DNA of 6,498 nt. Origin: a virus (taxonomy: Duplodnaviria > Heunggongvirae > Uroviricota > Caudoviricetes). Position 1 is the stretch's first letter. Every line of letters starts with the position of its first letter. Location: IMG/VR virus record IMGVR_UViG_2681813233_000001, one strand, 5' to 3'. The translations under genes were made by a program, and so were the position numbers. The notes beneath the pieces were generated by a model that saw nothing but the letters and a program-made list of their open reading frames with translations, was not told the DNA's origin and made no database searches. This document shows, piece by piece, positions 2,789-6,498 of this stretch.

Positions 2789-2815
2789 ATGGCCCTTCGG
2801 GGCCATTTTCTCTCT
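2789..2815 (+). terminator. Hairpin with UUCG-type tetraloop plus T-rich tail immediately 3' of E (ATGGCCC-TTCG-GGGCCAT-TTTCTCTCT)
   Basis: Perfect 7-bp stem 2789-2795 / 2800-2806 with loop TTCG 2796-2799, followed by the T-rich tract 2807-2815. It begins 3 nt after the E stop and sits just upstream of the FI ribosome-binding site. Confidence 0.4.
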
Positions 2816-2846
2816 GTGGAGGAGTCCATGACGAAAGATGAACTGA

Positions 2847-3224
2847 TTGCCCGTCTTCAGGTCGCTGGGTGAGCAACTGAACCGTGATGTCAGCCTGACG
2901 GGGACGAAAGAAGAACTGGTGCTCCGTGTGGCAGAGCTGGAAGAGGAGCTTGATGACACGGATGACGCTGCCGGTCAGGACACATCTGTCAGCCCGGAAA
3001 ATGCGCTGACCGGACATGAAAATGAGGTGGTATCAGCGCAGCCGGATACCGTGATTGATACGGCTGCTCTGGTCACGGTCGTGGCACTGGTGACGCTGCA
3101 TACTGATGCACTTCACGCCACGCGGGATGAGCCTGTGGCATTTGTGCTGCCGGGAACGGCGTTTCGTGTCTCTGCCGGTGTGGCAGCCGAAATGACAGAA
3201 CGCGGCCTGGCCAGAATGCAATAA
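2847..3224 (+). CDS. FI: gpFI-like DNA-packaging / head assembly protein, 5' end frameshifted relative to its native ATG at 2828 (possible pseudogene or sequencing error)
   Basis: The ORF 2847-3224 encodes ...SLGEQLNRDVSLTGTKEEL...DEPVAFVLPGTAFRVSAGVAAEMTERGLARMQ, matching lambda gpFI. The native-looking start ATG 2828 (GGAGGAG at 2818-2824) reads MTKDELIARLQVAG and stops at TGA 2870-2872 in a different frame. The long frame has only TTG 2847 as a start and no in-frame ATG until near its 3' end. Confidence 0.6.
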   Translation: MPVFRSLGEQLNRDVSLTGTKEELVLRVAELEEELDDTDDAAGQDTSVSPENALTGHENEVVSAQPDTVIDTAALVTVVALVTLHTDALHATRDEPVAFVLPGTAFRVSAGVAAEMTERGLARMQ

Positions 3225-3600: not shown

Positions 3601-4179
3601 ATGGCCATAAAAGGTCTTGAGCAGGCCGTTGAAAACCTCAGCCGTATCAGCAGAACGGCGGTGCCCGGTGCCGCCGCAATGGCCATTAACCGCGTTGCTT
3701 CATCCGCGATATCGCAGTCGGCGTCACAGGTTGCCCGTGAGACAAAGGTACGCCGGAAACTGGTAAAGGAAAGGGCCAGGCTGAAAAGGGCCACGGTCAA
3801 AAATCCGCAGGCCAGAATCAGGGTTAACCGGGGGGATTTGCCCGTAATAAAGCTGGGTAACGCGCGGATTGTCCTGTCCCGACGCAGGCGTCGTAAAAAG
3901 GGGCAGCGTTCAGCCCTGAAAGGTGGCGGCAGCGTGCTTGTGGTGGGAAACCGTCGTATTCCCGGCGCGTTTATTCAGCAACTGAAAAATGGCCGCTGGC
4001 ATGTCATGCAGCGTGTGGCCGGGAAAAACCGTTACCCCATTGATGTGGTGAAAATCCCGATGGCGGTGCCGCTGACCACGGCGTTTAAACAGAATATTGA
4101 GCGGATACGGCGTGAGCGTCTTCCGAAAGAGCTGGGCTATGCGCTGCAGCATCAACTGAGGATGGTAATAAAGCGATGA
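3601..4179 (+). CDS. Z: Tail completion protein gpZ, 192 aa
   Basis: ATG 3601 with AAGGGGGA (3589-3596) upstream; stop TGA 4177-4179. Translation MAIKGLEQAVENLSRISRTAVPGAAAMAINRV... matches lambda gpZ. Confidence 0.9.
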   Translation: MAIKGLEQAVENLSRISRTAVPGAAAMAINRVASSAISQSASQVARETKVRRKLVKERARLKRATVKNPQARIRVNRGDLPVIKLGNARIVLSRRRRRKKGQRSALKGGGSVLVVGNRRIPGAFIQQLKNGRWHVMQRVAGKNRYPIDVVKIPMAVPLTTAFKQNIERIRRERLPKELGYALQHQLRMVIKR

Positions 4180-4578: not shown

Positions 4579-5319
4579 ATGCCTGTACCAAATCCTCTGG
4601 CACCGGTGAAAGGGGCCGGGACCACCCTGTGGGTTTATAAGGGGAGCGGTGACCCTTATGCAAACCCGCTTTCAGACGATGACTGGTCGCGTCTGGCAAA
4701 AGTTAAAGACCTGACGCCCGGCGAACTGACCGCTGAGTCCTATGACGACAGCTATCTCGATGATGAAGATGCAGACTGGACTGCGACCGGGCAGGGGCAG
4801 AAATCTGCCGGAGATACCAGCTTCACGCTGGCGTGGATGCCCGGAGAGCAGGGGCAGCAGGCGCTGCTGGCGTGGTTTAATGAAGGTGATACCCGTGCCT
4901 ATAAAATCCGCTTCCCGAACGGCACGGTCGATGTGTTCCGTGGCTGGGTCAGCAGTATCGGTAAGGCGGTGACGGCGAAGGAAGTGATCACCCGCACGGT
5001 GAAAGTCACCAACGTAGGACGTCCGTCGATGGCAGAAGATCGCAGCACGGTAACAGCGGCAACCGGCATGACCGTGACGCCAGCCAGCGCTTCCGTAGTG
5101 AAAGGGCAGAGCACCACGCTGACCGTGGCATTCCAGCCGGAGGGCGCAACTGACAAGAGCTTCCGTGCGGTGTCAGCGGATAAAACAAAAGCCACCGTGT
5201 CGGTCAGTGGTATGACCATCACCGTGAAAGGTGTTGCTGCAGGCAAGGTCAACATTCCGGTTGTATCCGGTAATGGTGAACTTGCTGTGGTTGCAGAAAT
5301 CACCGTCACCGACAGTTAA
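4579..5319 (+). CDS. V: Major tail tube protein gpV, 246 aa, with C-terminal Ig-like (Big_2-type) domain
   Basis: ATG 4579 with GAGGA (4570-4574) upstream; stop TAA 5317-5319. Translation [42 protein letters not shown]... matches lambda gpV. The ORF-track start at 4549 overlaps U and has no ribosome-binding site. Confidence 0.9.
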
Positions 5320-5334
5320 TCCGGAGAGTCAGCG

Positions 5335-5757
5335 ATGTTCCTGAAAACCGAATCATTTGAACATAACGGTGTGACCGTCACGCTTTCTGAACTGTCAGCC
5401 CTGCAGCGTATTGAGCATCTCGCCCTGATGAAACGGCAGGCAGAACAGGCGGAGTCAGACAGCAACCGGAAGTTTACTGTGGAAGACGCCATCAGAACCG
5501 GCGCGTTTCTGGTGGCGATGTCCCTGTGGCATAACCATCCGCAGAAGACAAAGATGCCGTCCATGAATGAAGCCGTTAAACAAATTGAGCAGGAAGTGCT
5601 TACCACCTGGCCCACAGAGGCAATTTCTCATGCTGAAAACGTGGTAATGCGTCTGTCCGGTATGTATGAGTTTGTGGTGAATGATGCCCCTGAACAGGCA
5701 GAGGACGCCGGGCCTGCAGAGCCTGTTTCTGCGGGAAAGTGTTCGACGGTGAGCTGA
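5335..5757 (+). CDS. G: Tail assembly chaperone gpG, 140 aa
   Basis: ATG 5335 with GGAGAG (5323-5328) upstream; stop TGA 5755-5757. Translation MFLKTESFEHNGVTVTLSELSALQRIEHLALMKRQAEQ... matches lambda gpG. Confidence 0.9.
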   Translation: MFLKTESFEHNGVTVTLSELSALQRIEHLALMKRQAEQAESDSNRKFTVEDAIRTGAFLVAMSLWHNHPQKTKMPSMNEAVKQIEQEVLTTWPTEAISHAENVVMRLSGMYEFVVNDAPEQAEDAGPAEPVSAGKCSTVS

Positions 5758-6173
5758 GTTTTGCCCTGAAACTGGCGCGTGAGATGGGGCGACCCGACTG
5801 GCGTGCCATGCTTGCCGGGATGTCATCCACGGAGTATGCCGACTGGCACCGCTTTTACAGTACCCATTATTTTCATGATGTTCTGCTGGATATGCACTTT
5901 TCCGGGCTGACGTACACCGTGCTCAGCCTGTTTTTCAGCGATCCGGAGATGCATCCGCTGGATTTCAGTCTGCTGAACCGGCGCGAGGCTGACGAAGAGC
6001 CTGAAGATGATGTGCTGATGCAGAAAGCGGCAGGGCTTGCCGGAGGCGTTCGTTTTGGCCCGGACGGGAATGAAGTTATCCCCGCTTCCCCGGATGTGGC
6101 GGACATGACGGAGGATGACGTAATGCTGATGACAGTATCAGAAGGGATCGCAGGAGGAGTCCGGTATGGCTGA
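5335..6173 (+). CDS. T: Tail assembly chaperone G-T fusion made by programmed -1 ribosomal frameshift at 5733-5739; the T-frame portion is 5739-6173
   Basis: Slippery heptamer G_GGA_AAG at 5733-5739 in the G zero frame, 6 codons before the G stop. The -1 frame continues open from 5739 (VFDGELSFALKLAREMGRPDWRAMLAGMSSTEYADWH...) to TGA 6171-6173 and matches lambda gpT. The T frame has no ribosome-binding site or ATG of its own. Confidence 0.8.
5733..5739 (+). promoter_or_regulatory. -1 programmed ribosomal frameshift slippery site GGGAAAG (recoding signal for G-T)
   Basis: Heptamer of X_XXY_YYZ form, with GGA at 5734-5736 and AAG at 5737-5739 as zero-frame codons of G; the position matches the known lambda G/T frameshift site. 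Confidence 0.8.
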
Positions 6174-6498
6174 ACCGGTAGGCGATCTGGTCGTTGATTT
6201 AAGTCTGGATGCGGCCAGATTTGACGAGCAGATGGCCAGAGTCAGGCGTCATTTTTCCGGTACGGAAACTGATGCGAAAAAAACAGCGGCAGTCGTTGAA
6301 CAGTCGCTGAGCCGACAGGCGCTGGCTGCACAGAAAGCGGGGATTTCCGTCGGGCAGTATAAAGCCGCCATGCGTATGCTGCCTGCACAGTTCACCGACG
6401 TGGCCACGCAGCTTGCAGGCGGGCAAAGTCCGTGGCTGATCCTGCTGCAACAGGGTGGTCAGGTTAAGGACTCCTTCGGCGGGATGATCCCCATGTTC
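6166..6498 (+). CDS. H: Tail tape measure protein gpH, N-terminal 111 codons (CDS continues past the window end)
   Basis: ATG 6166 with GGAGGAG (6151-6157) 8 nt upstream; it overlaps the T stop (ATGGCTGA at 6166-6173). The frame is open to the window end; translation MAEPVGDLVVDLSLDAARFDEQMARVRRHFSGTETDAKKTAAVVEQSL... matches the lambda gpH N-terminus. Confidence 0.9.
   Translation, partial: MAEPVGDLVVDLSLDAARFDEQMARVRRHFSGTETDAKKTAAVVEQSLSRQALAAQKAGISVGQYKAAMRMLPAQFTDVATQLAGGQSPWLILLQQGGQVKDSFGGMIPMF

What the first reader, a model, noticed from the sequence alone, without database searches (positions are those of the whole stretch)
5733..5739. G-T programmed -1 frameshift site is intact
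The G ORF (5335-5757) contains the slippery heptamer G_GGA_AAG six codons before its stop. The -1 frame is open from 5739 to 6173, has no start signal of its own, and encodes a gpT-like sequence. This is the conserved tail assembly chaperone frameshift of lambdoid and many other long-tailed phages, which yields G and G-T at a fixed ratio. It is not novel, but an automated annotation would show it as two separate ORFs and miss the fusion.
Basis: partly seen in the sequence, partly recalled or inferred. Interest (0 to 1): 0.4.

Follow-up and report, generated by a model that had tools for sequence, protein, structure and literature searches.

The report
Lambda-type G-T tail chaperone frameshift site
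This is the well-known programmed -1 ribosomal frameshift site of phage lambda's tail assembly genes G and T, present unchanged in a lambda-like phage copy, so it is real but ordinary.

Summary
The window is a lambda-like late operon (C/Nu3 to the start of H), about 98% identical to lambda and 434. GGGAAAG lies at 5733-5739 in register G_GGA_AAG within G (5335-5757), five sense codons before G's stop. The -1 frame encodes a T homologue ending at 6173. A 232-nt stretch around the site is identical to lambda, where this frameshift has been shown experimentally.

Two corrections are small. The -1 frame is open from 5694, not 5739. There is a GTG at 5739, which GenBank and PGAP use as the start of T, but it has no usable Shine-Dalgarno sequence.

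In 75 homologous loci from Enterobacterales the same aligned position always carries an A_AAG or A_AAA slip motif. No start-like codon lies upstream of it in the -1 frame. The G stop follows within 0-5 codons, and conserved T sequence begins at the junction.

The predicted fusion is 279 aa (...VSAGK|VFDGELSF...). It matches TIGR01674, TIGR01715 and a PHROG family that spans the whole fusion.

A predicted downstream mRNA structure (5747-5817) is not conserved across the family, so its role is unresolved. The FI gene carries a private 1-nt insertion at 2863. Verdict: already known, low interest.

The parts
5323..5328 (+). Shine-Dalgarno sequence (GGAGAG) serving the G start codon
   Evidence: Anti-SD duplex -6.6 kcal/mol with 7-nt spacing to ATG 5335; sequence.
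5335..5757 (+). Gene G: tail assembly chaperone, 140 aa, the zero-frame product
   Evidence: ORF. Pfam PF06894 E = 4.7e-60 and TIGR01674 equivalog at 213.9 bits against a cut-off of 74.45. Four aa differences from lambda gpG.
5733..5739 (+). Slippery heptamer G_GGA_AAG, where the tRNA-Gly/tRNA-Lys pair re-pairs to GGG_AAA
   Evidence: Register confirmed. Identical to lambda. Kept in 79 of 80 close IMG/VR relatives. The same aligned position carries a slip motif in all 75 homologous loci.
5694..5738 (+). Part of the -1 frame that is open upstream of the first -1 codon; it holds no ATG, GTG or TTG
   Evidence: The preceding -1-frame stop is TGA 5691-5693.
5739..6173 (+). T reading frame: 144 codons decoded after the shift, then TGA. 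GT fusion = join(5335..5739, 5739..6173), 279 aa
   Evidence: Pfam PF06223 E = 2e-14. TIGR01715 equivalog at 186.1 bits against a cut-off of 77.35, and phrog_32165 covering fusion residues 1-278, E = 2.8e-125. One aa difference from lambda T.
5755..5757 (+). Zero-frame stop codon of G, bypassed by shifted ribosomes
5747..5817 (+). Predicted mRNA structure starting 7 nt 3' of the heptamer (outer helix 5747-5754 with 5810-5817; inner hairpin 5774-5788 with 5793-5807). Its role is not established
   Evidence: MFE -36.4 kcal/mol, z = -4.15 against dinucleotide shuffles. Kept in the lambda, N15 and phi80 groups. Only 68% of cells paired and no RNAalifold consensus across 61 sequences. z = -1.8 against synonymous recoding.
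4579..5319 (+). Gene V, the major tail tube protein (upstream context); the T domain of GT is reported to bind it
   Evidence: Pfam PF16461 E = 1.1e-70 plus a Big_2 domain. Binding role from PMC5009743.
6166..6498 (+). Start of gene H, the tape measure protein (downstream context). Its ATG overlaps the end of T (ATGGCTGA); the gene runs off the window
   Evidence: Pfam PF06791 E = 1.2e-26. SD AGGAGGAG with -10.3 kcal/mol at 7-nt spacing.

Best explanation
This is the lambda G-T programmed -1 ribosomal frameshift. Ribosomes start at the G ATG (5335). Most of them read through G_GGA_AAG in frame and stop at TGA 5755-5757, giving gpG (140 aa). A small fraction slip back one base while tRNA-Gly sits on GGA and tRNA-Lys on AAG, so the tRNAs re-pair with GGG and AAA. 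Those ribosomes read GTG at 5739 as valine and continue to TGA 6171-6173, giving the 279-aa fusion gpGT.

In lambda the ratio is about 30 gpG to 1 gpGT. Both proteins bind the tape measure protein H through the G part. The T part recruits the tail tube protein V. Neither protein ends up in the virion.

Shown here: the sequence anatomy, the homology, identity to lambda at the site, the lack of an independent start signal for T, and conservation of the site across the family. Taken from the literature on lambda and inferred for this copy: the slip itself, its rate, and the roles in assembly.
For: - Register, ORFs and junction.
- The window is about 98% identical to lambda and 434, and 5716-5947 is identical to lambda.
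- G and T family matches above the curated cut-offs, and a PHROG family that spans the whole fusion.
- GTG 5739 has an anti-SD duplex of only -4.3 kcal/mol at 1-nt spacing. G has -6.6 and H has -10.3, both at 7 nt.
- In 75 homologous loci (61 distinct sequences) the aligned position carries GGAAAAG (46), GGGAAAG (5), GGTAAAG (3), AAAAAAG (2), AGAAAAG (2), GGCAAAA (2) or GGGAAAA (1).
- In those loci no start-like codon lies in the -1 frame upstream of the site. In 72 of 75 the first one lies 15-69 nt downstream, inside conserved T sequence. The G stop follows after 0-5 codons.
- 79 of 80 close IMG/VR relatives keep GGGAAAG.
- Codon shuffles of G place a strong slip motif in the last 21 codons in 0.3% of cases.
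- Literature: -1 frameshifting at G_GGA_AAG in lambda, a 30:1 ratio that is crucial for tail assembly, and the roles of the G and T parts (PMC5009743). About 4% shifting, sensitive to tRNA-Lys U34 thiolation (PMC3296357; PMC7618472).
Against: Nothing in the sequence argues against it. Three caveats apply. No expression data exist for this copy. The same window has a private 1-nt insertion that breaks FI, so this phage copy may be defective or the sequence may contain errors. The bare heptamer alone is expected 0.8 times by chance in a window of this size, so the case rests on register, context and homology rather than on the motif.
Confidence: 0.95

Rival explanations
1. T is made as a separate 144-aa protein. 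Translation would start at GTG 5739 as GenBank J02459 and PGAP annotate it, either directly or by re-initiation of ribosomes that terminate at the G stop 16 nt downstream.
For: A GTG is present at 5739 and is the first start-like codon of the -1 ORF. Several database records annotate T from it. The G stop lies close by, so termination-reinitiation is conceivable.
Against: The only anti-SD match is -4.3 kcal/mol at 1-nt spacing, near the window's background of -3.3. The GTG is confined to the closest lambda relatives (3 of 75 loci). Stx2a phages with the same heptamer have GTC, and N15 and phi80 have GCC, while the slip motif and the conserved T residues that begin at the junction are kept. The reviews read here describe two products from this region in lambda, gpG and gpGT (PMC5009743; PMC3296357).
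Confidence: 0.03
2. The frame change happens in the mRNA. RNA polymerase slips on the A run and makes transcripts with one fewer or two extra bases, and the ribosome then reads them normally.
For: Transcriptional slippage does produce fusions in some bacterial and phage genes (PMC5009743). Two relatives carry A6 (A_AAA_AAG) at this position.
Against: The A run here is only three bases (GGGAAAG). By established knowledge that is far shorter than the runs of about 7 or more that support polymerase slippage. In lambda the frameshift rate responds to tRNA-Lys anticodon modification, which points to the ribosome (PMC3296357).
Confidence: 0.01
3. The site is intact in sequence, but this copy of the phage is defective or cryptic, so the frameshift currently has no biological consequence.
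For: FI carries a 1-nt insertion at 2863 that stops its frame after 14 codons. The inserted version was found in none of the 3204 matching records from complete E. coli genomes and in no IMG/VR contig.
Against: All other genes in the window are intact, and G and T differ from lambda by only 4 and 1 residues. A single private indel could equally be a sequencing or assembly error. The window does not show the rest of the genome.
Confidence: 0.15

Closest known systems
Phage lambda G/GT tail assembly chaperone -1 programmed frameshift (Levin, Hendrix and Casjens 1993, as cited in PMC5009743 and PMC3296357)
   Same: Same heptamer, same register, same distance to the G stop and same junction. 232 nt around the site are identical. 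Gene order V-G-T-H. G is 97% and T 99% identical in protein.
   Different: Four substitutions in G (Q73K, Y105M, N117D, T122A) and one in T (D70E), none within 40 nt of the site. This copy sits next to a broken FI gene.
Conserved tail assembly chaperone frameshift of long-tailed dsDNA phages (Xu, Hendrix and Duda 2004, as cited in PMC5009743, PMC10885494 and PMC8785237)
   Same: Two overlapping ORFs between the major tail gene and the tape measure gene. A slip motif lies near the end of the first ORF. The second ORF has no start of its own.
   Different: Most enterobacterial homologues found here use G_GAA_AAG, which is not a strict X_XXY_YYZ motif. The window has the canonical lambda form G_GGA_AAG, which is the minority (5 of 61 distinct sequences).
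E. coli dnaX -1 frameshift (A_AAA_AAG with an upstream SD-like stimulator and a downstream stem-loop). The comparison rests on established knowledge and was not looked up here.
   Same: A -1 slip of tRNA-Lys on A_AAG in E. coli. The window also has a predicted stable structure starting 7 nt downstream of the heptamer.
   Different: No SD-like sequence lies 10-14 nt upstream; the nearest, AGAGGA at 5700-5705, is 28 nt away. The downstream structure is not conserved across the family. The efficiency reported for lambda is about 4% (PMC3296357), whereas dnaX is high by established knowledge.

Membership tests
Lambda-type G/GT tail assembly chaperone frameshift | Two overlapping ORFs located between the major tail (tube) gene and the tape measure gene | tested here: met
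   V 4579-5319, G 5335-5757, T frame to 6173, H from 6166.
Lambda-type G/GT tail assembly chaperone frameshift | The upstream ORF is a gpG homologue | tested here: met
   PF06894 E = 4.7e-60. TIGR01674 at 213.9 bits against a cut-off of 74.45.
Lambda-type G/GT tail assembly chaperone frameshift | The -1 frame ORF is a T homologue | tested here: met
   PF06223 at 54.2 bits against a cut-off of 25.9. TIGR01715 at 186.1 bits against 77.35. phrog_32165 spans the fusion.
Lambda-type G/GT tail assembly chaperone frameshift | A slippery heptamer in the zero-frame register X_XXY_YYZ inside the overlap, shortly before the stop of the first ORF | tested here: met
   G_GGA_AAG at 5733-5739, five sense codons before TGA.
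Lambda-type G/GT tail assembly chaperone frameshift | The second ORF lacks its own translation start signal | tested here: met
   No start-like codon at 5694-5738. GTG 5739 has a -4.3 kcal/mol anti-SD match at 1-nt spacing. The GTG is absent from 72 of 75 homologues. This is sequence-level evidence only.
Lambda-type G/GT tail assembly chaperone frameshift | The position of the slip site is conserved among homologues | tested here: met
   All 75 loci carry an A_AAG or A_AAA motif at the same aligned codon, 4 residues before the conserved EL.F...LARE.GRPDWR sequence.
Lambda-type G/GT tail assembly chaperone frameshift | A fusion protein is actually made at a low fixed rate (about 3-4%) | not testable with these tools
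   Known for lambda (PMC5009743; PMC3296357). Inferred here from sequence identity around the site.
Lambda-type G/GT tail assembly chaperone frameshift | Both products are needed for tail assembly and are absent from virions | not testable with these tools
   Taken from the literature on lambda only (PMC5009743).
Stimulated -1 frameshift signals (dnaX or IS911 type) | An SD-like stimulator about 10-14 nt upstream of the heptamer | tested here: not met
   5713-5732 reads CCTGCAGAGCCTGTTTCTGC, with no GGAG or GAGG. The nearest SD-like sequence is AGAGGA at 5700-5705.
Stimulated -1 frameshift signals (dnaX or IS911 type) | A conserved stem-loop or pseudoknot 5-9 nt downstream | tested here: inconclusive
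   A stable structure is predicted at 5747-5817, z = -4.15 against dinucleotide shuffles. It has some compensatory pairs among 15 sequences. Across 61 sequences only 68% of cells pair and no consensus emerges. Against synonymous recoding the window's z is -1.8.

The most novel reading that the evidence does not exclude
An mRNA structure beginning 7 nt downstream of the heptamer (5747-5817 here) helps set the gpG:gpGT ratio in lambda, N15, phi80 and many related prophages. I do not know of such a stimulator being described for the lambda site. Support is partial. The first 96 nt of T fold more stably than synonymous recodings in about half of the family: mean z = -1.05, with 18 of 61 below -2. 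The last 96 nt of G give mean z = +0.27, with none of 61 below -2. The pairs are not homologous across clades, however, and the window's own z is only -1.8.
Probability: 0.15. Interest if true: 0.35.

Novelty: already known. Interest (0 to 1): 0.07.

Why it matters
It matters mainly for correct annotation. The window should carry a joined CDS, join(5335..5739, 5739..6173), marked as ribosomal slippage, rather than a free-standing T gene starting at GTG 5739. The gpG:gpGT ratio set by this site is needed for lambda tail assembly (PMC5009743) and depends on host tRNA-Lys modification (PMC3296357). An intact site is therefore one requirement for this phage copy to build tails. No new biology follows from finding it here.

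Tried and rejected
- **Downstream stimulatory structure.** The fold at 5747-5817 looked promising: z = -2.55 and -4.15 against dinucleotide shuffles, with covarying pairs such as 5748:5816 in a 15-sequence alignment. It did not survive a wider alignment of 61 distinct sequences. Only 68% of cells paired, the pair-type measures were no better than shuffles, and RNAalifold found no consensus. Against a synonymous-recoding null the window scores z = -1.8. I left it as inconclusive.
- **Rfam.** A scan of the whole window at E <= 1 gave only two sub-threshold chance hits, and nothing at the site.
- **Solved structures.** The fusion has no sequence relative in the PDB.
- **Promoters and terminators.** No promoter-like site lies in 5200-6498, so there is no sign of a separate T transcript.
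- **Independent T start.** Rejected on SD energy and on comparative grounds.
- **Upstream SD-like stimulator.** None at the right distance.
- **Literature.** Xu et al. 2013 (PMC3762263) is not held, and Levin et al. 1993 is not in the library. What those papers say about flanking sequence requirements could not be checked. Statements about lambda rest on PMC5009743, PMC3296357 and PMC7618472.
- **Polymorphism near the site.** The lack of variation at 5716-5757 among close relatives was not pursued as evidence. The sample is too closely related and lambdoid genomes are mosaic.

Full report
**What the window is.** The 6498-nt window is the left-arm late operon of a lambda-like phage. It carries the genes for C/Nu3 (S49 peptidase/scaffold), D, E, FI, FII, Z, U, V, G and T, and the first 111 codons of H. 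It is 97.8-98.0% identical to phiSTEC1575-Stx2k, 434 and other lambdoid phages, and up to 98.8% identical to E. coli prophages. Across the G-T region, window coordinate + 4376 gives the lambda J02459 coordinate.

**The observation.** GGGAAAG sits at 5733-5739 and occurs once in the window.
- Gene G starts at ATG 5335 behind a GGAGAG Shine-Dalgarno sequence and ends at TGA 5755-5757.
- Base 5733 is a third codon position, so the register is GCG_GGA_AAG, the canonical X_XXY_YYZ form.
- Five sense codons (CSTVS) and the stop follow the heptamer.
- The -1 frame is open from 5694, after TGA 5691-5693, to TGA 6171-6173.

**Is it more than chance?**
- The heptamer alone is not: shuffles of the window contain it 0.8 times on average.
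- Its placement is. In codon shuffles of G, an in-frame X_XXY_YYZ in the last 21 codons appears in 4% of shuffles.
- One of the motifs listed as highly shift-prone in E. coli (A_AAA_AAG, C_CCA_AAG, G_GGA_AAG; PMC5009743) appears there in 0.3%.
- Of the four in-frame heptamers in the window's genes, only this one is followed by a long -1 ORF (144 codons).

**Homology.**
- G matches Pfam PF06894 (E = 4.7e-60) and the NCBIfam equivalog TIGR01674.
- The -1 ORF matches PF06223 and TIGR01715, all above the curated cut-offs.
- The conceptual fusion matches phrog_32165 over residues 1-278 at E = 2.8e-125, so that family is built from full-length fusions.
- Compared with lambda, G has four substitutions and T has one.
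- The 232 nt at 5716-5947, which hold the heptamer and everything near it, are identical to lambda.

**Does T have its own start?** A GTG lies at 5739-5741, formed by the last base of the heptamer. J02459, HK630, the PhiR phages and PGAP use it as the T start.
- Its best anti-SD pairing is -4.3 kcal/mol at 1-nt spacing, against a window background of -3.3 +/- 2.6. G has -6.6 and H has -10.3, both at 7-nt spacing.
- No ATG, GTG or TTG lies in the -1 frame between 5694 and 5738.
- No promoter-like site lies in 5200-6498.

**Comparative evidence.** I collected G-T regions from 14 divergent phages (G identity 28-89%) and about 60 prophages of Enterobacterales species. Over 75 loci, 61 of them distinct:
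- The same aligned position carries GGAAAAG (46), GGGAAAG (5), GGTAAAG (3), AAAAAAG (2), AGAAAAG (2), GGCAAAA (2) or GGGAAAA (1).
- The A_AAG or A_AAA tetramer read by tRNA-Lys is therefore universal, while the P-site codon varies.
- The zero-frame stop follows after 0, 1 or 5 sense codons.
- No locus has a start-like codon in the -1 frame upstream of the site.
- Only the three closest lambda relatives have GTG at the first -1 codon. Stx2a phages with the same heptamer have GTC, and N15 and phi80 have GCC.
- In the other 72 loci the first start-like codon lies 15-69 nt downstream, inside the conserved sequence ..EL.F...LARE.GRPDWR.ML, which begins right at the junction.
- Among 80 close IMG/VR relatives, 79 keep GGGAAAG.

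This is the pattern expected if T is reached only by a shift from G.

**Mechanism.** The steps below come from work on lambda and are inferred for this copy from sequence identity.
- Low-level -1 frameshifting at G_GGA_AAG links the synthesis of gpG and gpGT at a molar ratio of about 30:1, and this ratio is crucial for tail assembly.
- The G part of both proteins binds the tape measure protein.
- The T part binds the major tail protein and recruits it.
- Neither protein is in the virion (PMC5009743).
- The zero frame is kept about 96% of the time, and under-thiolated tRNA-Lys(UUU) raises the shift rate and lowers phage yield (PMC3296357; PMC7618472).

**Rival explanations.**
- Independent initiation of T is unlikely, for the reasons given above.
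- Transcriptional slippage is unlikely because the A run is only three bases, and the lambda rate depends on tRNA modification.
- A third caveat concerns function rather than mechanism: this copy may be defective (see FI below).

**A possible downstream stimulator.** The 76 nt at 5745-5820 fold into a branched structure. It has an outer helix (5747-5754 with 5810-5817) and an inner hairpin (5774-5788 with 5793-5807), and it starts 7 nt after the heptamer.
- Its MFE is -36.4 kcal/mol, z = -4.15 against dinucleotide shuffles.
- N15 and Stx1 phages fold alike, and a Proteus prophage has a strong hairpin in a different register.
- In a 15-sequence alignment the structure is 84% paired with a few compensatory pairs.
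- In the 61-sequence alignment it is 68% paired, the pair-type measures do not exceed shuffles, and RNAalifold finds no consensus.
- Against a null that recodes the same protein with synonymous codons, the window scores z = -1.8.
- Under that null the family mean for the first 96 nt of T is -1.05 (18 of 61 below -2). It is -0.40 for the next 96 nt and +0.27 for the last 96 nt of G.

So excess structure just after the site is a tendency in part of the family, not a conserved element, and it is not significant for the window itself. I could not check what the original lambda papers found about flanking sequences.

**Annotation.** Most records list G and T as separate CDSs, with T starts at the GTG or at internal ATGs 15-69 nt downstream. 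The 434 record uses a join, and N15 marks the slippery sequence. Published work makes the same complaint about missing joins (PMC10885494; PMC8785237).

**Verdict.** The feature is already known, and interest is low.

Noticed in passing
window 2828-3224 (insertion at 2863): Gene FI is broken. From ATG 2828 it reads MTKDELIARLQVAG and then TGA at 2870-2872; the rest of FI continues in the +1 frame. The cause is one extra C at 2863 relative to the nearest relatives. It is the only indel against an E. coli prophage that is 98.8% identical. The inserted version occurs in no IMG/VR contig and in none of the 3204 matching records from complete E. coli genomes. It is not in a homopolymer run. It is either a private inactivating mutation or a sequence error.
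   Followed up: yes
window 2789-2816: Terminator-like hairpin ATGGCCC-TTCG-GGGCCAT followed by TTTTCTCTCT, in the gap between the major capsid gene E and FI. N15, HK225 and Ayreon records annotate a comparable hairpin after the major tail gene. It may attenuate transcription or stabilise the mRNA after a highly expressed structural gene.
   Followed up: no
L054 (IMG/VR UViG_2703718809_000019), position equivalent to window 5733: One of 80 close relatives has AGGAAAG (GCA_GGA_AAG) instead of GGGAAAG. The change is synonymous in G but removes the GGG codon that the P-site tRNA would re-pair with. G and T are otherwise intact. It could be a natural low-frameshift variant or a sequencing error.
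   Followed up: partly
L088-L097 and L116-L179, the aligned slip site: Most enterobacterial G-T homologues use G_GAA_AAG (46 of 61 distinct sequences), which is not a strict X_XXY_YYZ heptamer. Others use G_GTA_AAG, A_GAA_AAG or G_GCA_AAA. Only the A_AAG or A_AAA part is universal. This suggests that slippage of the A-site tRNA-Lys is the core event, and that simple heptamer-pattern searches would miss most of the family.
   Followed up: partly
L101-L115, L130, L134, L157 (genome-contig hits): Contigs 98-99% identical to lambda T turn up in assemblies labelled Neobacillus, Oceanobacillus, Kitasatospora, Pseudomonas, Chromatium, Shewanella, Paenibacillus, Enterococcus and others. Many have coverage around 1x in the contig name. 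These look like lambda DNA contamination of the assemblies rather than real prophages.
   Followed up: no
MW057783.1 (hit H21): A record named Campylobacter phage CJLB-4 (48,361 bp) is 97.9% identical to the query over the G-T region, the same as the lambda records, and carries lambda-style gene names. It is probably lambda, or a lambda contaminant, filed under another host.
   Followed up: no
window 6033-6059 and 6144-6170 (T residues 99-107 and 136-144): The T part ends with two copies of the motif G[LI]AGGVR[FY]G. N15, phi80, Tritos and Gifsy-1 T proteins stop after the first copy (113-115 aa), while lambda, Stx2a and some Stx1 phages have the roughly 35-residue extension that carries the second copy.
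   Followed up: no
window 3897-3903 and 3945-3951 (gene Z): Two more in-frame X_XXY_YYZ heptamers, A_AAG_GGG and G_GGA_AAC. The -1 frame stays open for 46 and 30 codons after them. There is no homology or conservation evidence, so they are probably chance.
   Followed up: no
window 6166-6173: The H start codon overlaps the end of T (ATGGCTGA: ATG 6166-6168, T stop TGA 6171-6173) and follows a strong SD, AGGAGGAG. This arrangement is typical of translational coupling, although only the few ribosomes that shifted frame would arrive by that route.
   Followed up: no
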